Assembly: GCF_018860975.1 (NCBI RefSeq)
Contig: NZ_JAHKQI010000008.1
Location: forward strand, 132,626-164,625
DNA length: 32,000 nucleotides
Direction of reading: 5' to 3'
Origin: Lentibacter algarum
Lineage (GTDB): Bacteria; Pseudomonadota; Alphaproteobacteria; Rhodobacterales; Rhodobacteraceae
Shown piece by piece: positions 13,698 to 28,092 of this stretch. The position numbers and the translations under genes were made by a program. A model generated the notes under the pieces. The model was not told the DNA's origin. It worked only from the letters and a program-made list of their open reading frames with translations, and ran no database searches. Position 1 is the stretch's first letter. The number at the start of each line of letters is the position of its first letter.

Positions 13698-13747
13698 TTG
13701 GCTCCGGCGGTAGGGATCGAACCTACGACAAATTGATTAACAGTCAA
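13698..13747 (-). repeat. Orphan copy of the tRNA-Asn 3' portion (att site, int-proximal)
   Basis: TGGCTCCGGCGGTAGGGATCGAACCTACGACAAATTGATTAACAGTCAA is identical to 28018-28066, and one extra T (13698 / 28017) also matches. It runs from CCA back through the anticodon loop into the 5' strand of the anticodon stem. The sequences diverge immediately after (GCG vs CTG). Confidence 0.95.
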
Positions 13748-13814
13748 GCGACGATATTTACTCACTTGGTGTAAGTTGATGCGGTTCATTAGTAAAAACA
13801 GTGGTTTGCACCTG

Positions 13815-13824
13815 TTTTGCAACG
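13815..13824 (-). repeat. CGTTGCAAAA motif copy (inverted orientation)
   Basis: TTTTGCAACG on the + strand, i.e. the reverse complement of the motif found in tandem at 13874-13894 and 27940-27961. Confidence 0.6.
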
Positions 13825-13873
13825 ACAATCAATCGGTTGACAGTGCGCCGGAATGCGCCTTAGTGATTTTGTG

Positions 13874-13894
13874 CGTTGCAAAACGTTGCAAAAA
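13874..13894 (+). repeat. Tandem CGTTGCAAAA motif (2 copies), candidate arm-type integrase/excisionase binding sites or int operator
   Basis: CGTTGCAAAA-CGTTGCAAAAA ends 14 bp upstream of the integrase ATG (13908). The same tandem occurs at the opposite island end (27940-27961). Confidence 0.6.
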
Positions 13895-13907
13895 CGGAGC
13901 ATTACGG

Positions 13908-15056
13908 ATGACTGCCGCACTTGATTTCACAAAGCCCGCCCGACTGCGAAAAGCCGCACCCGGCATGTATCGCCACGACGGGGATCGTTTCCCCGGCCTC
14001 TATCTCAACGTCGGGAAGACCAAGAACACTTGGTACATCAAACGCCGCGTCGATGGGAAAACGAAGTCGATCAAGGTCGGAGCGTTCCCGGCTATGGATG
14101 CGGTCACCGCGTTTAAACAGGGGGACACCAAGACGAGCGTTGCCAAGAGCAATATCGTAACCGTTCGCGATGGTTGGGAGTTCTGGTGCGATACGTCGCA
14201 GGCGCAAGGCGGTATGTCCGACGATCACCGCAACCGAATGTCCCGACAGCTTGAAATGCACGCGAGGGGGATCATGGACCGCAATGTGGCCGACGTAACC
14301 TCCGCAGACGTTCAGGGTGTCCTCAACGACCTGATGGCTGAGGGAAAGAAGGCAACAGCGAGGGCGGTGCGCATCGGTATCGGCAATGCTTTCAACTTCG
14401 CACCCGTCGTAAATCCAGTTGGGCAGAAAAAGACGCGCGTCGCCAAAAGCGATGAAACAGAGGCGCAATGGACGGCGGCGGCACACGCCCACGATCTCGA
14501 CGCAGACGATTGGTCGGTGATCTGGGAGGCAATAATGGCGCGACGTGAGAAGAACGTCATTGTCGGCACGGCGGTCGCCGTCATGTTCCTTACGGGCATC
14601 CGGTCGGAGAACGTTTGCTCGCTCTCGTGGGATCAAATCGATTTGCAGAACAAGACGATCCACCTGACCAAGATGAAGAACAAACTCGCCCGCACGTTGC
14701 CCGTGATGGATACGGTGATCGACCTGCTCAAGGCGATCCGTGAGACGGACAGTGAATGGGTGTTCCCGGCGTCGTCGGCCACGGGATACATCACGGACCC
14801 CAAAGGCACGTTCGCCACGATCAACGACGAGAGCGTCCGCGTTTTCCTGCCTCATGATGGGCGGCGTCATTTCATGCAGGCGTCTGCCGAGGCGTTCTTG
14901 CCCGACTATGTCGCCCACTTCCTGCGCGGCGATAAGAAGGCGGGCGAGGGTAGCGACATGCTGATGAAATACCTCAAGCGCATGGGTAACCGTCGTGCCG
15001 TCGAGGACATTGAAAAAGTGTATTTCAACCGCATTAAGGTAGAACCTTCTTTCTAA
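13908..15056 (+). CDS. int: Divergent tyrosine recombinase / integrase
   Basis: I chose ATG 13908 (GGAG 9 nt upstream) as the start. The N-terminus ...GLYLNVGKTKNTWYIKRRVDGKTKSIKVG... is a DUF4102-like arm-binding domain. The C-terminus ...FLPHDGRRHFMQASAEA...FLRGDKKAGEGSDMLMKYLK is a degenerate HxxR ... Y catalytic region. The gene is adjacent to the att repeat. Confidence 0.8.
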   Translation: MTAALDFTKPARLRKAAPGMYRHDGDRFPGLYLNVGKTKNTWYIKRRVDGKTKSIKVGAFPAMDAVTAFKQGDTKTSVAKSNIVTVRDGWEFWCDTSQAQGGMSDDHRNRMSRQLEMHARGIMDRNVADVTSADVQGVLNDLMAEGKKATARAVRIGIGNAFNFAPVVNPVGQKKTRVAKSDETEAQWTAAAHAHDLDADDWSVIWEAIMARREKNVIVGTAVAVMFLTGIRSENVCSLSWDQIDLQNKTIHLTKMKNKLARTLPVMDTVIDLLKAIRETDSEWVFPASSATGYITDPKGTFATINDESVRVFLPHDGRRHFMQASAEAFLPDYVAHFLRGDKKAGEGSDMLMKYLKRMGNRRAVEDIEKVYFNRIKVEPSF

Positions 15057-15248
15057 ATTGTTTGTTAACCGCAACTGCACTAAGATGCCCGAGCACCTAC
15101 GCCCGTCGTGAGACGCGCGCCACTCTGGCAGTGCACAGCATACCCAAGTACGCGGCGACGTGATGCGGCTTGGTTCTATGAAGCTCGTTGCGTCGCATAT
15201 CAACAGAGAGCGTCTGTCTTGGTAAAGGACCGACGAAAGGATCTGTTG

Positions 15249-15500
15249 ATGGATTCCTCCGCACTATTGCGCACGCTCGAAAAGCGCATTGAACATCTCG
15301 AGCAAAAAGCCGAACTCCCAAAACTCATGACACCGAAACAGGTGTGCAACTTCGTGGGCATTTCGGAATCGAAATTCTACGAATGGAAACGTGACGGCGA
15401 CGTGCCGCCTTCGATCTATTGGAGCGAGCGCACAGTGCGCTATGACCGCGACGATGTGATTGCTTGGGCAGAGTCGCACAAAGTAGGAGGGGCAGTATGA
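15249..15500 (+). CDS. AlpA / excisionase-family helix-turn-helix protein
   Basis: 83 aa starting at ATG 15249 (AAGGA RBS). ...LMTPKQVCNFVGISESKFYEWKRDGDVPPSIYWSERTVRYDRDDVIAWAES... has the typical AlpA/HTH_17 pattern, and the gene sits between int and the replicase as in P4-like elements and PICIs. Confidence 0.75.
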   Translation: MDSSALLRTLEKRIEHLEQKAELPKLMTPKQVCNFVGISESKFYEWKRDGDVPPSIYWSERTVRYDRDDVIAWAESHKVGGAV

Positions 15501-15588: not shown

Positions 15589-17979
15589 GTGAAGCAGGTC
15601 CATCCTGATAATGGTATGGACAAACAAACATCAGAAGCTCTCCTTCGCCTCTTTGATGGCAACCAAGATCGCCATCTTGTTCTCAGCGGCAAGCCATCGA
15701 AGAATGACAAAGGCAAAATCGAAACCAAAGCGCGGCTTGACGACGGCCCGCTGACCCTCGAAATGGCCCGCGCGCATTTGGAGGGCGATGCCTCTTATGG
15801 CATTTCGCCTGTGCGCGCAGACAGCACGTGTCTCTATGGTGTGCTCGACATTGACTGGTATGACATGCCCGAGGACGACGTTCGCCTGGTGGCTGATCAA
15901 CTGCGCACCCGATGCGCTGCCTTCCGCACAAAGTCACGTGGCTTGCACGTCTATGTCTTCGCGTCTGAGCCTGTTTCGGCACGCGTGATGCACGATTACC
16001 TAGTTGCCCTGCGTAAGCGCCTCCCGAAAGCGTGCTTCGACAAGAAGCAAAAGCGAGATGTCGAAATATTCCCGAAGGAGACACAGACAGTCGTTAACCC
16101 CGACGACCAACCAACTTCTGTCAATTTACCAATGAAAGGGCAACAGCGTGAATTGGCATGGCTGATCGACGAGAGCGCGAGTCCGAAATGGGCACTCGAC
16201 GAAATGAGCGCGCTCAGCATCCTTTCGCACATCGACGAACATTGCCGCGTTGATGCCGCGACCATGGCTGCCATTACAAATGAGCAGCCGACACTCGACA
16301 CGTCGGACATTGGCTACAAGATTCCTGACGATCCAGCTGGTCGAAACGATCTGTTGATGCGTATTGCCGCCTCCATGCAAACGCGTGGCTGGCCGGACAG
16401 TGAATTGGAAGCGGAAGTTCGAAAACTGAATGGCGACGAAAAATTCCATGACTTGTTCATGGTGGGCGCGCTGACGGAATCCGAGATCAAGAACATCCTG
16501 AAACGGACGAAGAAGCTCGACAAAGGCACACCGACGCCGTTGCATTATCGGCAAGTTGAGAAGTTCAATCGCGACTGGTCGAAAATCACGATCAACGGCA
16601 CAGTCGAATACCTCGACAAAACGTCGCCTGAGTTCACAACGTTCACCAAGCAGATGCTGTTCGATGAAACCTCGGACAAAGTTGTCCGGATCGGCAAAGC
16701 AACAATCCCGCTTGCTCAACTGTGGTTGCGCGATCCCGATCACGCTCGGTTCAAGGGCGTTGTCTGCGAACCTGTCGAGTATGCAGGCCCCGGCTACAAT
16801 GTGTGGTGCGGTTTTGCTGTCGCCCCCAAAGATGGCGACGCTTCGGTGTTCGAACGTTACATCTTGGAGGTGTTGTGTTCGGGTGACGAGGATCTTGCTC
16901 ACTGGGTGACGATGTGGCTCGCGGACGCCGTGCAAAACCCGACTGAGCCTTCACCGCCAACAGCAATCGCATTGCGCGGCAAGCAAGGCGGCGGCAAGTC
17001 GTTCCTGCAAGAGCGCATCCTGACGCTGATCTTCGGCGAGCGGTATGTCCAGAAGGTTCAGGAGTCGCAACGTTTGTTCTCGCGGTTCAATCGCGGCATC
17101 TTTGGCGCGACCTTCATCGCCTGCGAAGAGTCGATCTTTCATGGATCGCAGGCGACGGCGGCGACGCTTAAGTCGTTCATCTCGTCACCTGCTTGGACCT
17201 ATGAGGAAAAGCATAAGGCGGTCGTGCAGGCAAAAAATGTTCACCGTATCATCGCCACGACGAACGAGACCCAAGCCGTCCATATCGACTTTGACGATAG
17301 GCGGTGGACGGTGATCGAGGTCGCGCAACCATTCGACATGACGACCCGTGACGGTCAAGCGGAGGCGTACGCTTTTTGGGAGCCTTATCACGCGTTCATG
17401 CGATCAGACGACGGCCCAGGTATCGTGTTGCGCTACTTGCTCGACTATCCGGTAGACAGGCAGGCTCTGACGTTTGGCTATGGCACGGAGGCTAAGGCGC
17501 GCGACAAGGTGGCATCCGATCCTTTGATTGCTGCTTTGCACGAGATTGCTGAGCGCGGCATTGTCCCGCATGACCGAAAAGCGGCGGGCATCATCTCGAA
17601 CAAGACTTTGACCACGCTTGTCCATCAGTCGGGCGGACGCAACATGTCGCCCGAAGAAATCGCCAACAAGCTGCTCAACCTGATTCCGGGAGTGAAGAAG
17701 TCGCGGAAGGCGCAGTATTGCGAACGCGTCCACACGTCCACGGACATGAACGGCGACGCTTCGGCAACGCCTATGATGGAGTCGGGGCAGCGAGGCTACG
17801 ACTTTGGCACGCTGACTGACTTTCGGGCGGCTGTGACGCGGCTGACTTTGCAATCTTATGGCGAGGACGACGAGGCGGTGGACTTTGACCCTGCCGACTT
17901 CGACATGCCCGATACGGGCGGATGGCAGGCATGGCAGGTCGCGCAAAAGGAAGACCCGAATGGTGATCCGCCTTTTTGA
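15589..17979 (+). CDS. Replicase: N-terminal AEP prim-pol domain, PriCT-like linker, C-terminal D5/SF3-type P-loop NTPase
   Basis: 796 aa. The prim-pol metal motif is ...YGVLDIDWYD... and the His motif is ...KSRGLHVYVF.... The PriCT-like segment is ...RIAASMQTRGWPDSELEAEVRKLN.... Walker A is ...LRGKQGGGKSF..., Walker B-like ...FIACEES..., and motif C ...RIIATTNE.... The start is GTG 15589 or ATG 15616. Confidence 0.85.
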   Translation: MKQVHPDNGMDKQTSEALLRLFDGNQDRHLVLSGKPSKNDKGKIETKARLDDGPLTLEMARAHLEGDASYGISPVRADSTCLYGVLDIDWYDMPEDDVRLVADQLRTRCAAFRTKSRGLHVYVFASEPVSARVMHDYLVALRKRLPKACFDKKQKRDVEIFPKETQTVVNPDDQPTSVNLPMKGQQRELAWLIDESASPKWALDEMSALSILSHIDEHCRVDAATMAAITNEQPTLDTSDIGYKIPDDPAGRNDLLMRIAASMQTRGWPDSELEAEVRKLNGDEKFHDLFMVGALTESEIKNILKRTKKLDKGTPTPLHYRQVEKFNRDWSKITINGTVEYLDKTSPEFTTFTKQMLFDETSDKVVRIGKATIPLAQLWLRDPDHARFKGVVCEPVEYAGPGYNVWCGFAVAPKDGDASVFERYILEVLCSGDEDLAHWVTMWLADAVQNPTEPSPPTAIALRGKQGGGKSFLQERILTLIFGERYVQKVQESQRLFSRFNRGIFGATFIACEESIFHGSQATAATLKSFISSPAWTYEEKHKAVVQAKNVHRIIATTNETQAVHIDFDDRRWTVIEVAQPFDMTTRDGQAEAYAFWEPYHAFMRSDDGPGIVLRYLLDYPVDRQALTFGYGTEAKARDKVASDPLIAALHEIAERGIVPHDRKAAGIISNKTLTTLVHQSGGRNMSPEEIANKLLNLIPGVKKSRKAQYCERVHTSTDMNGDASATPMMESGQRGYDFGTLTDFRAAVTRLTLQSYGEDDEAVDFDPADFDMPDTGGWQAWQVAQKEDPNGDPPF

Positions 17980-21923: not shown

Positions 21924-22150
21924 AGTCGCCCCATTCAGAATTCCTCGGCTGGGATCACTACGCTCGCGACCATGCAAGGCGTTTGGAAGCCGCCAACTCG
22001 GCAAGGCATCCCGAATGGGTTGAACTGCCCGCGACCCGCCGCGCCGCAAAAGGGGAAGCCAAGTATTTCACGGGCAAGCCGTGCGCGAATGGGCACATCT
22101 CCCCGCGATATTCATCTGGGTGTTGCCGCGCCTGTCAGACAGGGCGGTAA
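21920..22150 (+). CDS. Small Cys-rich zinc-ribbon protein (76 aa)
   Basis: The TTG start at 21920 sits 7 nt after a very strong SD (AAAGAGGAGG) and overlaps the TerS stop. ...YFTGKPCANGHISPRYSSGCCRACQ is a C-x4-H ... C-x2-C motif that recurs in alphaproteobacterial phage proteins. Confidence 0.5.
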   Translation: MKSPHSEFLGWDHYARDHARRLEAANSARHPEWVELPATRRAAKGEAKYFTGKPCANGHISPRYSSGCCRACQTGR

Positions 22151-22152
22151 AA

Positions 22153-22932
22153 ATGCCATTTGACGCCCTCATACCGTGGTGCGCAGAGCTTGAACGCTCG
22201 CTCGATCCCGCTGCGCGTCTGCGCCATTGGATCGGTCATGAGCCTGATCCTTGGCAGATCGACGCTTTTACCACGCAGGCGACGGAAGTCGCCCTGCGGG
22301 TCGGTCGTCAGGCGGGCAAGACCTCGGTGCTGGCCGCGCGCTCGGTTGAAGAATTGCACATCCCGGATTCATTGACCATCTGCGTTGCGCCCGCAGAGCG
22401 GCAAGCCAAGATCATCGCGCGAGAAATCGGGCGACAGTTGAAGCGCACCGAATTGGTCATCACGCGCTCGACGCTGACCGAACTCGAAATGTCGAACGGT
22501 GCCCGTGTCGTCGCGCTGCCGTCCACGTCGGACACTATTCGCGGCTATCCATCGGTATCGTGCCTGATCATTGACGAATGCGCTTTCTTGCAAGGCGATG
22601 GCGGCGGCGAAGACTTGATTGCGGGCGTCCTGCCAATGCTGACGGAAAAAGGGCAAGTTTATTTTAGCTCAACGCCTGCGGGCAAAAACAACTATTTCGC
22701 GCGTCTGTTCCTCGACGCAAAGCCGGGTGACGGTGTTCACCGCATTGTCGTCAAAGGCACGGACATCCCGCGACTGAAAGACAAAGTGGAGCGGATGCGT
22801 CGCACGTTGTCCGCGACCAAATTCCGCCAAGAGATCGAGTGCGAACTGCTTTCGGATGGCACCAGCTACTTCGACTTCTCAATCATCGAAAACGCAATAA
22901 GCACGGAGGGCGCAATATGTCCCAAGATGTGA
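22153..22932 (+). CDS. terL: Terminase large subunit, ATPase domain only (split TerL, N-terminal part)
   Basis: 259 aa from ATG 22153. Walker A is ...LRVGRQAGKTSVLA..., Walker B ...VSCLIIDECAFL..., and the coupling motif ...YFSSTP.... The ORF stops at 22932. Confidence 0.8.
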   Translation: MPFDALIPWCAELERSLDPAARLRHWIGHEPDPWQIDAFTTQATEVALRVGRQAGKTSVLAARSVEELHIPDSLTICVAPAERQAKIIAREIGRQLKRTELVITRSTLTELEMSNGARVVALPSTSDTIRGYPSVSCLIIDECAFLQGDGGGEDLIAGVLPMLTEKGQVYFSSTPAGKNNYFARLFLDAKPGDGVHRIVVKGTDIPRLKDKVERMRRTLSATKFRQEIECELLSDGTSYFDFSIIENAISTEGAICPKM

Positions 22933-23654
22933 ACTACGAAAACGCACTCAACCTCGTCTATCTGCCTGACGGGCGCGTAGTGAATGAAACAAACCAAGAC
23001 CCGGCCATCGAACGGGTCACGGGACACCAAAACTATTGGGTTGCCGCTGACCTCGGGCAGGCAAATGACTACACCGCCGTTGCAGTCATCAAAGACGAGG
23101 CGCTGCCCATCGTTGACGGATCGAAGGTCATCGTGGGACCGCGCCACCGTTCAATCGTACACGCTGATCGCTTCCGTGGCGTGTCCTATGTCGATGTCTG
23201 CGATTACCTGATCCGCTTGCGCAACGCGCCGCCGTTTGGTGGCAAGTCTGAACTTGTGATCGACGGCACGTCGCTCGGACGCGTCGTATCGGACATGCTC
23301 TGGGATCAATCAGTCGATCACCACGCCGTGCAAATGACCGGAGGCCAATCATGGCGCAAGGAAAGCTCGCGGTATGTCAACGCGGGGAAGACATTCATGA
23401 TCGAAAACTTGTCCGTGCTGTTTGCCTCAGGCGACCTCAAGTTTGCACATGACTTGCGGTTGCGCGACGAGATCGCATCCGACCTAGCCTCCTTCTCGTT
23501 GCAGACCACAGCAGCAGGCAATCAGATCATCACGCAGTCACGATCCGCAGGCGGTCACGGGGATTTGGGGATTGCGGTAATCGTCGGCGCGTTCGCGTCG
23601 CAATATCTGCGCCCGAAGATGGTCACGACCCACACGCTGCGCGGGTGGTATTGA
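22917..23654 (+). CDS. terL: Terminase large subunit, RNaseH-like nuclease domain only (split TerL, C-terminal part)
   Basis: 245 aa from ATG 22917 (GGAGGG 5 nt upstream), overlapping the ATPase ORF by 16 nt in another frame. ...YWVAADLGQANDYTAVAVI... contains the first catalytic Asp motif, and ...SAGGHGDLGIAVIVGA... is the late acidic motif. Confidence 0.75.
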   Translation: MSQDVNYENALNLVYLPDGRVVNETNQDPAIERVTGHQNYWVAADLGQANDYTAVAVIKDEALPIVDGSKVIVGPRHRSIVHADRFRGVSYVDVCDYLIRLRNAPPFGGKSELVIDGTSLGRVVSDMLWDQSVDHHAVQMTGGQSWRKESSRYVNAGKTFMIENLSVLFASGDLKFAHDLRLRDEIASDLASFSLQTTAAGNQIITQSRSAGGHGDLGIAVIVGAFASQYLRPKMVTTHTLRGWY

Positions 23655-23804
23655 CGTCTGTCGTCGCACTCTTGGCAACCGCGTGGGACGTAACACCGTG
23701 AACTCGACGAGCGAACGCGATGAACTGCGCAGCTCTGCGGTAATGCGGGGTTTTGGGCATAACCGTGGGGCACCGACCATAACCACCTTCGCTGACGGGG
23801 ATTT

Positions 23805-23831
23805 GCGGCGACCACGGGTAGTGGTCGCCGC
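23805..23831. terminator. Perfect 11-bp hairpin between convergent transcription units
   Basis: GCGGCGACCAC-GGGTA-GTGGTCGCCGC lies 6 nt beyond the stop of the 44-aa gene (- strand) and ~150 nt after terL-C (+ strand). There is no strong U-tract on either strand, so its termination function is uncertain. Confidence 0.45.
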
Positions 23832-23837
23832 AGCGGT

Positions 23838-23972
23838 TTAAAGAAACGAAAAGCCCACTGCGACGAGCGCAACGACGATCACGAATACGGCCCCAACGGC
23901 AATGTTGCCGCTTGCATTTGCTTCGAAGTGCTTTCCGATTTTGATCAGGAGTTTGTTTTCTTGGCTGTTCAT
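23838..23972 (-). CDS. Unannotated 44-aa single-pass membrane peptide, downstream of and probably co-transcribed with the AIPR-like gene
   Basis: It is absent from the ORF track (<60 aa). My hand translation is MNSQENKLLIKIGKHFEANASGNIAVGAVFVIVVALVAVGFSFL*. A GAGGAG RBS lies 7 nt upstream of the ATG and overlaps the stop of the AIPR-like ORF. The C-terminal ~22 residues form a hydrophobic helix. Confidence 0.6.
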   Translation of the reverse strand: MNSQENKLLIKIGKHFEANASGNIAVGAVFVIVVALVAVGFSFL

Positions 23973-23983
23973 GCCTAAGCTCC

Positions 23984-25207
23984 TCAACCCATTGTGTCCA
24001 ATTGCTGCTGCATTACATGCAGCCGCACCGATTTGAACAAATTGGCCCAGTGGTTTCGATTTTTACCAAGCGAATCCGGCGCATTACCGATGTCACTAAT
24101 TGCTTGTTTAGTTTCTGAAACCAACTCAGGCGCTAGGTCGCGCCAAGAAGCAAGAACGTTCTCGAAACCGCCAACCCATTCAGCGCATCCGGTGTCCGGA
24201 TTGATTGAAACAAAATTTCGAAACGCGCCCAGAATTGGGTAAGCGGCCCCCTTGGTCAAACGCTGGTCGTGGTCGTCCAGTTTTGCATATTGGAACTTGT
24301 GTCGGCCCTTGCTTGGAGGAGCCTTCTCCACAATCCTCAGGTTTCCGGCGCGGCCTTTGACGGTCTCATTGTAAACCTTGAGAAATTCCCGGCGAATGTG
24401 ATCGTATAGTACAAGAGTTTCGATCAGTAGAGGTTCAAAGGCCGCGTATTTTCTGGGTTCGCCAGTTTTCTTGTGCTCTTTAAAGTCGTCACCATACTTC
24501 ATCAGCGGCGTTGACCACTTCTCATAGGCCGCAATTGGATGCTTAGACTCACGAACAGGAAAATCCGTGACGTTCATCAGTTCAAGAACAGACACCAGTT
24601 CTCGGACGTCAATGTCCTTCTTGTCTGACTCTTTGAAACCAATATCGTTTGCCCAGTCTTGATCCTTCACGATTTCCTTGAGGCTATCGAACGCGCCATC
24701 AAGTTCAAAGATCGACCGAGGTTGCACAGAAATTCCAGTGTTCTGCCCTCTTGCGATGTCCACACGCAGTGTGTGGTTTTCTCCACCTTCTAGCCCGGTG
24801 ATGATTTTGACTTCGACGTGCTGGCCTTCGCCGATCGAATCATCCTCTTGACAGTCGTAAATGATCCGGGTGGTGTGGCCGCCATTGGCGATACCGTAAT
24901 CATCATCAATCATGACGTCGAAGACCCGCTTGTCGATCACCTCGATGTCTTCGGCAATGATGGTAATCCCCAGATTCAACAGGTCGAAGGTGCCTGGCAG
25001 TGCCTCTTTGCCTTCGAGGCTTGCTTTTACGTCCTTATACACCTGCCGGTTCATACCAACAGGGTCGCGCAAATTTGCGCCCGTCGGGACGTCCTTTGGG
25101 AAGAGGCGTGCAGGGACCAAGAAGGTGTGCTTGACGATGTTTGGGAGGGTGGGGTGTTTAACGCTACGCGCTTCGGACACCTCAAACCGATATGGTTTGA
25201 TAGCCAT
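23984..25207 (-). CDS. AIPR-like (abortive-infection phage-resistance family) protein, tentative
   Basis: The likely start is MAIKPYRF (ATG 25207, GGAG upstream); alternative starts are 25222 and 25252. ...GTFDLLNLGITIIAEDIEVID...DDDYGIANGGHTTRIIY... resembles the AIPR N-terminal core (..NG.QT..). The gene is visibly AT-richer than the island backbone and is divergent from a cytosine methyltransferase. Confidence 0.45.
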   Translation of the reverse strand: MAIKPYRFEVSEARSVKHPTLPNIVKHTFLVPARLFPKDVPTGANLRDPVGMNRQVYKDVKASLEGKEALPGTFDLLNLGITIIAEDIEVIDKRVFDVMIDDDYGIANGGHTTRIIYDCQEDDSIGEGQHVEVKIITGLEGGENHTLRVDIARGQNTGISVQPRSIFELDGAFDSLKEIVKDQDWANDIGFKESDKKDIDVRELVSVLELMNVTDFPVRESKHPIAAYEKWSTPLMKYGDDFKEHKKTGEPRKYAAFEPLLIETLVLYDHIRREFLKVYNETVKGRAGNLRIVEKAPPSKGRHKFQYAKLDDHDQRLTKGAAYPILGAFRNFVSINPDTGCAEWVGGFENVLASWRDLAPELVSETKQAISDIGNAPDSLGKNRNHWANLFKSVRLHVMQQQLDTMG

Positions 25208-25435
25208 TCTTGAGTACTCCATGGGCCACGACGGACCAATGTTGCGGGGCACGATGACCCCGGACGGCAGGATTGCCTGAGCCTTGGTACCAAAAAATCA
25301 GCGTTATGGCAACACAGGTTGCGCTTTTTTTCTCGTCCGACACAAGATATGCTGTTACTGATTTTCACGAGACATAAAGGCTGGGCAGTTAGGACTTGAT
25401 CCCGTGATAAACAAAATGACGAGAAAAACGACGAG

Positions 25436-26584
25436 ATGATGGGTTTCAATTACTACGACTTCTTTGCAGGTGGCGGCATGGCCGGGTTTGGTCTCGGGTC
25501 GAACTGGGATTGCCTGTTCGCGAACGACATAGACGCGAAGAAGGCAGCGAGTTACCGCGCCAACCATCATGGCGGCAAGGAACTGCTGCTAAAGGACGTT
25601 GCTCAGGTCACATTAGACGAACTACCCGGGTCGCCTGACCTCGTGTGGGCCTCATTTCCATGCCAAGACCTGTCGCTTGCTGGCAATGGTGCGGGCCTCG
25701 CGGGCAAGCGTAGCGGGATGTTCAAACCGTTCTGGAAACTGATGCGGTCACTTCACGCCGATGGTCGCGGCCCCAAGATCATCGCACTAGAGAACGTCTA
25801 CGGGGCGATCACGAGCAATGGCGGTCGAGACTTCGCAACACTTGCCGCTGCCTTCTCGGGCCTTGGGTATAGGTTCGGCGCTGTCGTCGTCGATGCGGTG
25901 CACTTCCTACCGCAATCCCGTCCGCGCTTCTTCATGGTAGGTGTTCGGGGCGACTTGACGATCCCGGAAAGTCATACAGTAGATGGCCCTTGCGCGATGT
26001 GGCATCCGCCCGCGCTTATCGAAGGTTGCAACCTGCTTTCGCAGACAGCAGCATCGCGTTGGCGTTGGTGGAACCTGCCAACACCGCCAGCTCGGAACAC
26101 AAACCTTGCTTCGCTGATCGAAGACAAGCCGACTGGTGTAAAGTGGCACACGAAAGCAGAAACCAAATACCTGCTCGACATGATGACCGACCACAACCGC
26201 AAGAAAGTCGAAGCGGCCAAGCAGTGTGAAGAGCGGGTGGTGGGCACGATCTACAGGCGCACGCGCGCGGACGCTGATGGTGTGAAGCGGCAGCGGGCAG
26301 AGGTGCGCTTTGACCAGATTGCTGGGTGCCTACGCACGCCTGCTGGCGGTTCAAGCCGTCAGACAATCATGTTGGTAGAGGGAAGCAAGGTTCGCTCGCG
26401 CTTGCTGTCAACGCGCGAAGCCGCATCCCTAATGGGCCTGCCTGAAACCTATATCCTACCTGAACGCTACAACGACGCCTATAAACTCGCGGGCGATGGC
26501 GTTGCCGTTCCGGTCGTTCGTCACCTTGCAGAGGCGATCTTTGAACCGCTCTTAAAGCGGAATCGACTCGCTTTGGTTGCCTGA
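25436..26584 (+). CDS. dcm: DNA (cytosine-5) methyltransferase
   Basis: 382 aa with the canonical C5-MTase motifs: I DFFAGGGM, IV SFPCQDLS, VI ENV, VIII QSRPRFF, and X GDGVAVPVV. Confidence 0.92.
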   Translation: MMGFNYYDFFAGGGMAGFGLGSNWDCLFANDIDAKKAASYRANHHGGKELLLKDVAQVTLDELPGSPDLVWASFPCQDLSLAGNGAGLAGKRSGMFKPFWKLMRSLHADGRGPKIIALENVYGAITSNGGRDFATLAAAFSGLGYRFGAVVVDAVHFLPQSRPRFFMVGVRGDLTIPESHTVDGPCAMWHPPALIEGCNLLSQTAASRWRWWNLPTPPARNTNLASLIEDKPTGVKWHTKAETKYLLDMMTDHNRKKVEAAKQCEERVVGTIYRRTRADADGVKRQRAEVRFDQIAGCLRTPAGGSSRQTIMLVEGSKVRSRLLSTREAASLMGLPETYILPERYNDAYKLAGDGVAVPVVRHLAEAIFEPLLKRNRLALVA

Positions 26585-26603: not shown

Positions 26604-27314
26604 ATGGTTGACCGAAATCCCGACGATACAAATTTCCCACCTTTTGAAACCGAAGATCTTCGGTCCAATTTGGCTGAGTTTCTAACCCAGAAATTCGATG
26701 ATCCGATCACAGGGAAGCCGCGCGTAATAGGCGGCTTCAAATGGGGCGTATATGCTTTCTTCGATTACGACGGAGAACCTATTTACGTCGGCCAGACGAA
26801 AGAAAAAGTAAGTACCCGAATTAGGCGGCACCTGACAAATCAGCGGACAGATGCTGTTGCAATGTCGGTGCTTGACCCGTTCGAGGTTTACGAGGTCGAA
26901 GTTTGGCCACTACCGCAGTTTCAGAAAACAGGCGCAACTGATGTTGCCGCCAAAGCGCATTTGGATGCCCTTGAGGACCTTGTTTATCAAGAGGCGATTG
27001 CAGGCAGCACTTTCAAAGCGGTGCTAAATGAAAAAGACCCACCTGCACCGACAGTAGCCGTGACGAAACCCCCATCGCTTCGCTATCGACTTGTCTCGGA
27101 CGAGGTTCACAAGATTAGGTCGCACCCTGATTTCCGCATTGCACGGCGAGCCTTGATCATCTCGCGTCTGGCGCAGGTCATCTCGGAGCGGAAGGTGCAA
27201 GGTGGGCTACGACGGGTATTGTTGACCCAAGCTAAGCGGCTACAATGGCTTGCAGAGCGACGCTATGTGGCGTTGGGCGGGGAAGCGTCGGTCGAGGTTG
27301 AGGAAGGCGAATAA
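26604..27314 (+). CDS. GIY-YIG nuclease-domain protein (candidate restriction endonuclease partner of the C5-MTase)
   Basis: 236 aa, 19 bp downstream of dcm on the same strand. ...KWGVYAFFDYDGEPIYVGQTKEKVSTRIRRHL... matches the GIY ... YIG ... R ... H core. The ~110-aa C-terminal region is unassigned. Confidence 0.65.
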   Translation: MVDRNPDDTNFPPFETEDLRSNLAEFLTQKFDDPITGKPRVIGGFKWGVYAFFDYDGEPIYVGQTKEKVSTRIRRHLTNQRTDAVAMSVLDPFEVYEVEVWPLPQFQKTGATDVAAKAHLDALEDLVYQEAIAGSTFKAVLNEKDPPAPTVAVTKPPSLRYRLVSDEVHKIRSHPDFRIARRALIISRLAQVISERKVQGGLRRVLLTQAKRLQWLAERRYVALGGEASVEVEEGE

Positions 27315-27989: not shown

Positions 27990-28017
27990 CATTTTACTTA
28001 ACTATCAAGTAGTTAAT

Positions 28018-28092
28018 TGGCTCCGGCGGTAGGGATCGAACCTACGACAAATTGATTAACAGTCAACTGCTCTACCGCTGAGCTACGCCGGA
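28018..28092 (-). tRNA. tRNA-Asn (anticodon GTT), intact, with encoded CCA
   Basis: The reverse complement is TCCGGCG-TA-GCTC-AGCGGTA-GAGC-A-GTTGA-CTGTTAA-TCAAT-TTGTC-GTAGG-TTCGATC-CCTAC-CGCCGGA-G-CCA. This is 75 nt with a full cloverleaf. Confidence 0.95.

What the first reader, a model, noticed from the sequence alone, without database searches (positions are those of the whole stretch)
23838..25207. AIPR-like protein coupled to a previously unlisted 44-aa membrane peptide
A short ORF (MNSQENKLLIKIGKHFEANASGNIAVGAVFVIVVALVAVGFSFL*) begins 11 nt after the AIPR-like stop. Its GAGGAG RBS overlaps that stop codon, which strongly suggests co-transcription and translational coupling. It has an amphipathic N-terminus and a single C-terminal TM helix, typical of small membrane-disrupting effectors or toxins. 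As far as I know, AIPR proteins are usually described as single-gene Abi or R-M-associated factors. A dedicated membrane-peptide partner would suggest a sensor (AIPR-like DNA-binding or nuclease protein) plus a membrane effector.
Basis: partly seen in the sequence, partly recalled or inferred. Interest (0 to 1): 0.65.

Follow-up and report, generated by a model that had tools for sequence, protein, structure and literature searches.

The report
AIPR gene with coupled membrane peptide
A phage-defence-type gene (AIPR) is always followed in one bacterial lineage by a tiny, translationally coupled gene for a 44-residue membrane peptide; the pair travels as a self-contained cassette with a conserved RNA-hairpin leader, an arrangement not yet described for this family.

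Summary
On the minus strand, a 407-aa AIPR protein (23984-25207, Pfam PF10592) is followed after 11 nt by a 44-aa ORF (23838-23972). Its GAGGAG ribosome-binding site overlaps the AIPR stop codon.

The small ORF is a real gene. Homologues lie directly after every AIPR of one monophyletic alphaproteobacterial clade (26 of 26). Stop and start codons overlap or sit 11-14 nt apart. Purifying selection is strong (pS 0.77, pN 0.33). A search with the peptide motif alone returned AIPR upstream in 12 of 12 assessable metagenome loci.

The transferred unit is just leader + AIPR + peptide + terminator hairpin. The neighbouring methyltransferase and GIY-YIG genes are not conserved partners.

AlphaFold predicts a helix, a kink at G22, then a transmembrane helix. 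The cytoplasmic N-terminal half is the conserved part.

Distant relatives of the peptide sit, translationally coupled, behind a HicB-type antitoxin-like gene. A homologue of that gene elsewhere precedes a MazF toxin. This favours, but does not prove, a membrane toxin or effector controlled by AIPR. A membrane-tether role remains a serious rival.

Short AIPR genes across phyla also carry an uncatalogued 5' leader of 2-3 hairpins with CAUCGY loops.

Verdict: new variant of a known kind.

The parts
23984..25207 (-). Short-form AIPR protein, 407 aa. The AIPR core covers residues 44-336 and carries the signature GIANGGHT at 105-112. It lacks the roughly 245-residue N-terminal region of AbiU-type AIPRs.
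   Evidence: Pfam PF10592 at E=3.3e-19. The PADLOC AbiU and PHROG 1841 profiles align only from profile position ~246 onward. There are 435 homologues, the best at 92% identity. AF2 model has pLDDT 80.
23838..23972 (-). 44-aa tail-anchored membrane peptide. Its conserved cytoplasmic N-terminal helix has the motif KLLIKIGxxFEANA(S/T)G. Invariant G22 forms a hinge before a 20-residue TM helix. No residues follow the TM helix.
   Evidence: Conserved in position and frame. pS 0.77 versus pN 0.33. The family comprises 98 clusters of 41-53 aa with no Pfam domain. AF2 pLDDT 89.5, helices 3-21 and 23-42. No hit in Pfam, PADLOC, NCBIfam or PHROGs.
23980..23985 (-). GAGGAG ribosome-binding site of the peptide gene. 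It overlaps the AIPR TGA stop (23984-23986) and lies 7 nt before the ATG.
   Evidence: Read directly from the sequence. In the sister sub-clades the stop and start codons overlap (ATGA or TGATG) behind a GGAG/GGGGG tract.
23804..23832 (-). GC-rich terminator-like hairpin with a 12-bp stem, 5 nt after the peptide stop. It marks the 3' end of the cassette.
   Evidence: Fold energy -31.9 kcal/mol, z = -2.5. A hairpin of different sequence sits at the same place after the peptide gene in nearly all loci.
25245..25262 (-). Leader hairpin 1: cggggu-CAUCGU-gccccg, starting 55 nt before the AIPR ATG.
   Evidence: Stem pairs swap between lineages.
25224..25237 (-). Leader hairpin 2: gguc-CGUCGU-ggcc, starting 30 nt before the AIPR ATG and just upstream of the GGAG RBS.
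   Evidence: Stem pairs swap between lineages.
23820..25278 (-). Extent of the transferable cassette: leader, AIPR, peptide and the start of the terminator. Nucleotide homology to other genomes stops at these limits.
   Evidence: blastn against L001, L002, L003 and L005. Flank alignments. No shared neighbouring genes.

Best explanation
This is a self-contained two-gene operon. One transcript carries a structured 5' leader, a short-form AIPR protein and a translationally coupled 44-aa tail-anchored inner-membrane peptide, and ends at a hairpin terminator.

**Shown**
- The peptide is a real gene under selection.
- It is obligately linked to one AIPR clade.
- It co-diverges with AIPR.
- The pair moves as a unit.

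**Inferred**
- The conserved cytoplasmic helix of the peptide (residues 7-22) contacts AIPR in a stoichiometric complex.
- AIPR has a ParB/DndB-like nucleic-acid- or nucleotide-binding core but no N-terminal effector domain. It acts as the sensor or keeper.
- The peptide is the membrane-acting toxin or effector. It is released or clustered on phage infection, or when AIPR supply fails, and it depolarises or permeabilises the inner membrane. That would be abortive infection or TA-like growth arrest.
- The CAUCGY-loop hairpins in the leader are an autoregulatory or antidote RNA site for AIPR.
For: **The gene is real**
- dN/dS-type test.
- position and frame are conserved.
- confident helix-kink-helix model.

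**Linkage to AIPR**
- all 26 peptide-bearing AIPRs form one clade.
- a peptide-motif search returns AIPR upstream in 12 of 12 assessable loci.
- further loci show the same arrangement.
- AIPR and peptide distances correlate (r = 0.87, Mantel p about 2e-4).

**Unit of transfer**
- homology stops at the cassette ends.
- no conserved neighbours.

**Effector or toxin reading**
- the peptide family extends to distant members.
- two of these are coupled (4-nt overlap, or stop abutting start as TAAATG) behind a roughly 145-aa HicB-family RHH protein, next to Gabija and TIR genes.
- a 50%-identical homologue of that RHH protein is followed by a MazF/PemK toxin, so the peptide sits in a toxin slot.
- this AIPR lacks the N-terminal roughly 245 residues of AbiU-type proteins. 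PMC3506569 describes that region as a HEPN toxin domain.
- PMC9122126: transmembrane partners in defence systems are generally taken to be suicide effectors, for example RT-nitrilase + 1TM.

**Leader**
-.
Against: - Orthologous short AIPRs of the same length and with the same conserved polar residues occur without any peptide in the sister branch and in Acidobacteriota and others. AIPR is therefore likely active on its own, and the peptide may be accessory.
- The TM segment is featureless and poorly conserved (pN 0.45, against 0.24 for the N-terminal half). It has no conserved charged or polar pore residues, which looks more like an anchor than a pore.
- Solitary peptide genes exist: Oricola L048, and L077 and L085. 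That argues against strong intrinsic toxicity.
- No fold match for AIPR was found.
- No expression, toxicity or phage data exist.
- The cassette often sits alone among housekeeping genes rather than in defence islands.
Confidence: 0.45

Rival explanations
1. Membrane tether. The peptide is a non-toxic tail anchor whose cytoplasmic helix binds AIPR. It holds AIPR at the inner membrane, where phage DNA enters. AIPR itself is the effector, a ParB/DndB-like DNA-binding protein, NTPase or nuclease.
For: - The conserved part of the peptide is cytoplasmic. The TM part needs only to be hydrophobic.
- Nothing follows the TM helix.
- Peptide-less orthologues keep the same conserved polar residues (87 columns shared). 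The AIPR activity is therefore ancestral and self-sufficient.
- Lactococcal AbiUi works as a single gene (PMC13064643).
- Many peptide-less AIPRs end in a polybasic tail (RRRR/RRRK) that the peptide clade lacks. That tail could be an alternative membrane- or DNA-targeting device.
- Solitary peptide genes are tolerated.
Against: - The same peptide family is coupled to an unrelated HicB-type RHH protein, in a slot that holds MazF elsewhere. That is hard to explain for an AIPR-specific anchor.
- The sister AIPRs L014 and L015 have neither peptide nor polybasic tail.
- There is no evidence that AIPR acts at the membrane.
Confidence: 0.3
2. Selfish addiction (toxin-antitoxin) module with no dedicated anti-phage role. 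The peptide is a membrane toxin and AIPR (with or without the leader RNA) is its antidote. The pair only stabilises itself wherever it lands.
For: - The minimal 1.5-kb cassette is inserted alone between housekeeping genes, including inside the S10 ribosomal-protein operon.
- The gene order is antidote first, toxin second, with translational coupling.
- Relatives pair with a HicB-family antitoxin-like gene.
- The tandem hairpin RNA ahead of the protein gene recalls type III TA organisation.
Against: - AIPR/AbiU is an experimentally defined phage-resistance family (PMC13064643).
- In this window the cassette sits in the accessory end of an integrative element, beside an R-M pair.
- The RHH-plus-peptide relatives lie next to Gabija and TIR genes.
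- TA and Abi roles are not mutually exclusive.
Confidence: 0.15
3. AIPR and the peptide are accessory components of the adjacent restriction-modification system: the C5 methyltransferase at 25436-26584 and the GIY-YIG protein at 26604-27314.
For: - The genes are adjacent and divergent in this window.
- The literature links AIPR to R-M operons (PMC3506569).
Against: - None of the 46 genome loci has the methyltransferase, the GIY-YIG protein or the terminase within 6 kb. That includes the 98%-identical L001.
- Nucleotide homology stops about 70 nt upstream of the AIPR ATG.
Confidence: 0.03
4. The small ORF is a chance open frame in the 3' UTR.
For: Short ORFs are common in 55-58% G+C DNA.
Against:: conserved frame, ATG start, length, motif and synonymous-biased divergence down to about 35% peptide identity.
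Confidence: 0.01

Closest known systems
AbiU / AIPR family (Lactococcus AbiUi; Pfam PF10592; PADLOC AbiU)
   Same: The large protein carries the AIPR domain above Pfam's threshold. Its core aligns to the AbiU profiles. The family is a known phage-resistance and R-M-associated family.
   Different: - Only the C-terminal half of AbiU-type proteins is present. Profile positions 1 to about 245 are missing.
- A dedicated, translationally coupled 44-aa membrane peptide follows.
- A hairpin-array leader precedes.
- AbiUi is described as a single-gene system, and no membrane partner is reported.
Defence systems with a small single-TM partner taken to be a suicide effector (e.g. RT-nitrilase + 1TM and HAD + TM of P4 hotspots; CBASS/Pycsar TM effectors; RexA-RexB)
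   Same: A cytoplasmic protein is paired with a transmembrane partner in one operon, and carried on an integrative element (PMC9122126).
   Different: There is no sequence relationship. The peptide is much smaller (44 aa, one TM helix, no sensor domain). Its function is untested.
Type II HicAB-like toxin-antitoxin modules
   Same: Distant members of the peptide family are coupled downstream of a HicB-family RHH protein. A homologue of that protein precedes MazF. The gene order is antidote first, toxin second.
   Different: In the window the upstream gene is AIPR, not an RHH antitoxin. The downstream gene is a membrane peptide, not a HicA or MazF RNase.
Type III toxin-antitoxin / Abi systems (ToxIN, AbiQ)
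   Same: An Abi-family protein gene is preceded by 2-3 tandem RNA structural units about 22-30 nt apart.
   Different: The units are hairpins with different stems and a shared loop, not identical 35-36-nt direct repeats. No terminator separates the RNA from the protein gene. AIPR is not a ToxN/AbiQ endoribonuclease.
Type I membrane toxins (Hok, Fst, TisB, Ldr)
   Same: Size (about 30-50 aa) and a single hydrophobic helix.
   Different: The polarity is reversed: a conserved polar N-terminus and the TM helix at the extreme C-terminus. The peptide is translationally coupled to a protein gene, and no antisense RNA locus is evident.
Kiwa / Zorya-type membrane-anchored defence
   Same: Under the tether rival, a membrane component positions a DNA-acting cytoplasmic protein.
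   Different: No homology. Those systems use multi-TM sensors or motor proteins.

Membership tests
AIPR (Pfam PF10592) | Match to the family HMM above the gathering score | tested here: met
   70.1 bits against a cut-off of 25, E=3.3e-19, residues 44-336. All 38 aligned homologues match.
AIPR (Pfam PF10592) | Conserved (D/N)G-x-(H/Q)-T strand-helix signature of the DndB/ParB-like core | tested here: met
   GIANGGHT at 105-112 is invariant in the clade. Peptide-less relatives have GIVDG(A/G)HT. The relation to DndB is taken from PMC3506569 and PMC8546572 and was not tested structurally. Foldseek gave no significant hit.
AIPR (Pfam PF10592) | Habitual association with restriction-modification genes | tested here: not met
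   An MTase and GIY-YIG pair is adjacent in this window only. It is absent within 6 kb of all 46 related loci.
AbiU (Lactococcus AbiUi, PADLOC PDLC02357) | Full-length architecture of about 540-590 aa, with the N-terminal region preceding the AIPR core | tested here: not met
   Only profile positions 247-371 of 537 (PADLOC) and 246-372 of 567 (PHROG 1841) align, to residues 44-183.
AbiU (Lactococcus AbiUi, PADLOC PDLC02357) | Confers phage resistance or delays phage transcription | not testable with these tools
   Needs a phage challenge.
Type II toxin-antitoxin (HicB-type) | Upstream RHH/HicB antitoxin gene coupled to a downstream toxin | tested here: not met
   The window's upstream gene is AIPR and has no RHH hit. 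The feature is met only by distant peptide relatives in L078 and L081.
Type III toxin-antitoxin (ToxIN/AbiQ) | Tandem identical RNA repeats, then a terminator, then an endoRNase toxin gene | tested here: not met
   The leader has 2-3 hairpins with a shared loop but different stems, and no intervening terminator. No Rfam match.
Type I membrane toxins (Hok/Fst/TisB) | Independently translated small hydrophobic toxin controlled by an antisense RNA | tested here: not met
   The peptide is translationally coupled to AIPR in all loci. No Rfam sRNA or antitoxin hit in 23600-25500.
Holins | TM protein with a charged C-terminal tail, encoded next to an endolysin | tested here: not met
   No residues follow the TM helix, there are 0 K/R and 0 D/E after residue 24, and no lysin gene is nearby.
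New small-peptide family (motif h-L-x-I-[KR]-h-G-x-x-F-E-A-[NS]-A-x-G + TM) | 41-58 aa, conserved N-terminal motif, invariant Gly hinge, C-terminal TM helix | tested here: met
   The window peptide is 33-95% identical to members.

The most novel reading that the evidence does not exclude
A hitherto unrecognised family of roughly 45-aa tail-anchored peptides is a portable membrane toxin or effector module. It is plugged behind different cytoplasmic keepers: short AIPR here, HicB-type RHH proteins elsewhere. Short AIPR genes across several phyla are also governed by an uncatalogued 5' RNA element of tandem hairpins with CAUCGY hexaloops, which AIPR itself binds. Together these would make a three-part (RNA, protein, peptide) abortive-infection or TA architecture not described before.
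Probability: 0.3. Interest if true: 0.8.

Novelty: new variant of a known kind. Interest (0 to 1): 0.68.

Why it matters
- **AIPR mechanism.** AIPR/AbiU is among the more widespread Abi-type families. A recent preprint reports AbiU as the second most common defence in dark-ocean single-cell genomes. Yet its mechanism is unknown. A clade that has shed the N-terminal domain and gained an obligate membrane peptide gives a simple two-gene handle on how AIPR signals.
- **The peptide family.** It has no model in Pfam, NCBIfam, PADLOC or PHROGs. It is missed or labelled 'hypothetical', so defence and TA finders overlook it. Its appearance behind HicB-type genes suggests a reusable module.
- **The leader.** The conserved CAUCGY-loop leader is a candidate new cis-regulatory RNA tied to a defence gene. 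It makes AIPR's ligand directly testable.

Tried and rejected
- **Complex prediction.** No complex could be predicted.
- **R-M partnership.** The adjacent MTase and GIY-YIG genes were rejected as partners.
- **Conserved third gene.** All-against-all ORF clustering over 47 loci found only generic ABC-ATPase, SDR and integrase families.
- **Analogous TM ORF elsewhere.** None was found downstream of peptide-less AIPRs or of Firmicute plasmid AIPRs. The Firmicute AIPRs instead have a divergent HTH gene.
- **Phage carriage.** The peptide motif was not found in IMG/VR contigs. Only remote AIPRs occur in phage records.
- **D-to-N change as a correlate of peptide gain.** The change at residue 108 was rejected as a correlate, because the peptide-less sisters L014 and L015 share it.
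- **Exact origin.** The window's AIPR protein is not on record as an exact sequence. The closest genome is Pseudosulfitobacter pseudonitzschiae at 98% amino-acid identity.
Full report
**1. What is in the sequence**

The feature lies on the minus strand. The large ORF runs from the ATG at 25207 to the TGA at 23986-23984 and encodes 407 aa. The spacer is 11 nt. GAGGAG at 23985-23980 overlaps the stop codon and ends 7 nt before the ATG. The large protein matches Pfam AIPR (PF10592) at E = 3.3e-19, 70 bits against a cut-off of 25, over residues 44-336. PADLOC's AbiU profile and PHROG 1841 align only from their position ~246 onward. The protein is therefore a short AIPR that lacks the roughly 245-residue N-terminal region of AbiU-type proteins. 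The peptide matches nothing in Pfam, PADLOC, NCBIfam or PHROGs.

**2. The small ORF is a real gene**

A scan of one genome per species returned 46 loci with relatives of this AIPR. The closest is Pseudosulfitobacter pseudonitzschiae at 98% amino-acid identity. In 17 of these loci a homologous 41-45-aa ORF starts right after the AIPR stop. Either the spacer is 11-14 nt behind a GAGG-type RBS, or the stop and start codons overlap as ATGA or TGATG.

- All homologues begin with ATG.
- All share the motif K-L-L-I-[KR]-[IV]-G-x-x-F-E-A-N-A-[ST]-G, followed by about 20 hydrophobic residues.
- Pairwise Nei-Gojobori counts give mean pS 0.77 against pN 0.33. For the N-terminal half these are 0.80 and 0.24; for the TM half, 0.73 and 0.45.
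- In the two alternative reading frames pS is lower than pN.

A profile search of 5.8 billion proteins found 98 clusters. All are 41-53 aa and stand-alone, and all are unnamed or 'hypothetical'. AlphaFold2 on 51 members gives pLDDT 89.5, with helix 3-21, a break at invariant G22, and helix 23-42. All charged residues lie before residue 24 and nothing follows the TM helix. I infer an N-in, tail-anchored topology.

**3. Linkage to AIPR**

- In a neighbour-joining tree of 50 AIPRs, the 26 that carry the peptide form one clade. The sister pair (Pelagibacterium, Phenylobacterium) and 22 more distant members (Acidobacteriota, Gammaproteobacteria, Hydrogenedentota and others) have no comparable downstream ORF.
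- A metagenome scan with the peptide motif alone returned 13 loci. All 12 with enough upstream DNA have AIPR directly upstream.
- Further look-ups showed the same pair in every case.
- AIPR and peptide distances co-vary (r = 0.87, Mantel p about 2e-4). This is expected for linked genes, and it shows the partners have not been shuffled.

**4. The unit is the pair, not the neighbourhood**

Nucleotide homology between the window and four other genomes runs only from about 70 nt upstream of the AIPR ATG to about 18 nt past the peptide stop, which is window 23820-25278. The window's C5 methyltransferase, GIY-YIG protein, terminase and other neighbours are absent from all 46 loci. ORF clustering found no conserved flanking gene. 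Elsewhere the pair sits alone between housekeeping genes:
- cobS and cobT;
- parB and smc;
- near hemY;
- in Leisingera, inside the S10 ribosomal-protein operon.

A GC-rich hairpin follows the peptide stop in nearly every locus. Its sequence differs from locus to locus, consistent with the transcript ending there.

**5. Context in this window**

A perfect 50-nt direct repeat occurs at 13698-13747 and 28017-28066. The second copy is the 3' part of tRNA-Asn. The repeats bracket a 14.3-kb integrative element that carries:
- an integrase, an AlpA-type regulator and an AEP-primase/DUF5906 protein;
- a large terminase split into two ORFs;
- the AIPR-peptide cassette;
- the methyltransferase and GIY-YIG pair.

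The cassette is thus cargo in the accessory end of a satellite-like or prophage-remnant island. This is the kind of hotspot described for defence genes (PMC9122126).

**6. A wider peptide family, and what it suggests**

An exhaustive HMMER search of 1.84 billion representatives found 22 short proteins. About 15 are distant members that keep the motif (h-L-x-I-[KR]-h-G-x-x-F-E-A-S-A-x-G-R-h-A-h plus a TM helix). None of the seven non-AIPR contexts I could inspect, counting the Oricola locus L048, has an AIPR.

- In L081 and L078 the peptide is coupled behind a roughly 145-aa HicB-family RHH protein. In L081 the genes overlap by 4 nt; in L078 the TAA stop abuts the ATG (TAAATG). These loci lie next to a TIR gene and a Gabija (GajA/GajB) pair.
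- That RHH family is large (at least 413 clusters) and NCBI names it 'HicB family antitoxin'.
- On a Methylobacterium plasmid, a 50%-identical homologue is followed 8 nt later by a MazF/PemK toxin.
- The other peptide genes are solitary or beside unknown genes.

The peptide therefore occupies a toxin slot in at least one other module type. This is the best, though indirect, evidence that it is an effector rather than an AIPR-specific accessory.

**7.

The 70-95 nt before the AIPR ATG hold two or three short hairpins. Their 6-nt loops keep one oriented consensus, C-A-U-C-G-Y. Their stems differ within and between loci. In the window these are cggggu-CAUCGU-gccccg at 25262-25245 and gguc-CGUCGU-ggcc at 25237-25224.

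- All 50 leaders examined across the phyla sampled have at least one such hairpin at a roughly fixed position, about 30 nt before the ATG. Of these, 39 have a second, and some have a third.
- Among 31 alphaproteobacterial leaders, frequency is 1.9 per 110 nt, against 0.089 per 110 nt in the surrounding DNA. For strict CATCGN loops the figures are 1.45 and 0.0036.
- Stem positions show GC, CG, AU and UA swaps. Because the hairpins were selected for at least 4 bp, '100% paired' is true by construction. The enrichment and the diversity of pair types are the evidence.
- The asymmetric conserved loop with variable arms points to a hairpin in RNA, or in single-stranded DNA, rather than a double-stranded operator.
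- An extended -10-like TGn-TAnnnT often lies just upstream (seen directly). The hairpins would then lie in the 5' UTR.
- No Rfam family matches.
- The element is absent from Firmicute plasmid AIPRs, which have a divergent HTH gene instead. It is also absent from the RHH-peptide modules.

**8. Mechanism**

*Shown:* a two-gene operon with coupled translation. The peptide has a conserved cytoplasmic helix and a tail-anchor helix, and it is inherited as a unit with AIPR.

*Inferred:*
- The peptide helix binds AIPR.
- AIPR acts as sensor or keeper. Its core is related to DndB (PMC3506569, PMC8546572).
- The peptide damages the membrane when released or clustered.
- The leader hairpins are an AIPR-binding autoregulatory or antidote RNA.

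I put this at 0.45. The main rival, at 0.30, is that the peptide merely tethers AIPR to the membrane. Four observations favour the rival:
- peptide-less orthologues retain 87 shared conserved columns;
- the TM segment is featureless;
- solitary peptide genes are tolerated;
- many peptide-less AIPRs carry polybasic C-tails.

A pure addiction-module reading (0.15) overlaps with the first. An R-M accessory role and a spurious ORF are effectively excluded.

**9. Comparison with what is known, and novelty**

The large protein is a member of the AIPR family. It is not a full AbiU-type protein. The literature I could search treats AIPR/AbiU as single-gene or R-M-linked and mentions no membrane partner. 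The peptide family and the leader have no entry in any library searched. I classify the finding as a new variant of a known kind, with interest 0.68. The comparative evidence is strong, but function is untested, and I could obtain no complex prediction and no fold assignment.

Noticed in passing
window 25224-25278 (minus strand); leaders of L001-L044 just upstream of each AIPR ATG: The leader holds a conserved array of 2-3 hairpins with CAUCGY hexaloops and lineage-specific, pair-swapping stems. It occurs upstream of short AIPR genes in Alpha- and Gammaproteobacteria, Acidobacteriota and Hydrogenedentota, whether or not the peptide is present. No Rfam family matches it.
   Followed up: partly
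window 13698-13747 and 28017-28066: A perfect 50-nt direct repeat; the second copy is the 3' part of tRNA-Asn (28018-28092). The repeats bracket a 14.3-kb integrative element with integrase (13776-15056), AlpA-like HTH (15108-15500), AEP primase/DUF5906 (15589-17979), terminase, the AIPR cassette and an R-M pair. It looks like a satellite or a prophage remnant.
   Followed up: partly
window 22081-22932 and 22839-23654 (+): The large terminase is split into two overlapping ORFs in different frames. The N-terminal ATPase half matches Terminase_6N; the C-terminal half matches phrog_27743. This could be a frameshift, a pseudogene or programmed frameshifting.
   Followed up: no
window 25436-26584 (+) and 26604-27314 (+): The C5 cytosine methyltransferase matches PADLOC's DruM2|DruM model very strongly (E=3e-155). 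A GIY-YIG protein follows 19 nt later. This is a probable type II R-M pair, and no other Druantia genes are present. It is not conserved next to AIPR elsewhere.
   Followed up: partly
L047 8001-9364 (Leisingera aquimarina): The AIPR-peptide cassette, together with a 170-aa unknown ORF, sits inside the S10 ribosomal-protein operon between the L23 and L2 genes, on the opposite strand.
   Followed up: no
L078 4554-5162; L081 1288-1889: These loci carry two-gene modules: a HicB-family RHH protein (about 145 aa) with a translationally coupled distant relative of the peptide (53-57 aa). They lie next to Gabija (GajA/GajB) and a CAP12-PCTIR TIR gene. In L078 the gene caller missed the RHH ORF and called a doubtful antisense ORF instead.
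   Followed up: partly
L048 6001-6153 (Oricola sp.); L077 5001-5153; L085 2513-2641: Solitary peptide-family genes with no AIPR or RHH gene adjacent. L048 lies 413 nt downstream of an AAA_15/DUF2813 (OLD-like) ATPase. L077 lies near an SMC_N/AAA_23 ATPase and AbiEii. L085 is unannotated and sits between parB and a helicase gene on an Agrobacterium plasmid.
   Followed up: partly
C-termini of AIPRs in L021-L033, L041, L044: Peptide-less AIPRs often end in a polybasic tail (for example ...EKAPARRRR). The peptide-bearing clade ends in a neutral or acidic tail. The polybasic tail may be an alternative targeting device.
   Followed up: no
L065-L067 (Enterococcus, Lactiplantibacillus, Latilactobacillus plasmids): Remote short AIPRs (about 27% identity, 389-408 aa) on small Firmicute plasmids are each paired with a divergent HTH regulator of about 93 aa. 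They have neither the hairpin leader nor a downstream peptide. In L067 an Fst type I toxin gene lies 450 nt downstream on the other strand.
   Followed up: partly
L021 7398-8524; L022 7356-8524; L034 7430-8665: Some peptide-less AIPRs are followed by other conflict-type genes. L021 and L022 have a PRTase-like protein plus a protein that looks SLOG/DprA-like by eye. L034 has a protein with a PD-(D/E)xK-like motif. No family scan was run on any of them.
   Followed up: no
L025 5706-5751 (minus strand): An Acido-Lenti-1 RNA (Rfam RF01687, 63 bits) lies about 250 nt upstream of an acidobacterial AIPR gene, on the opposite strand.
   Followed up: no
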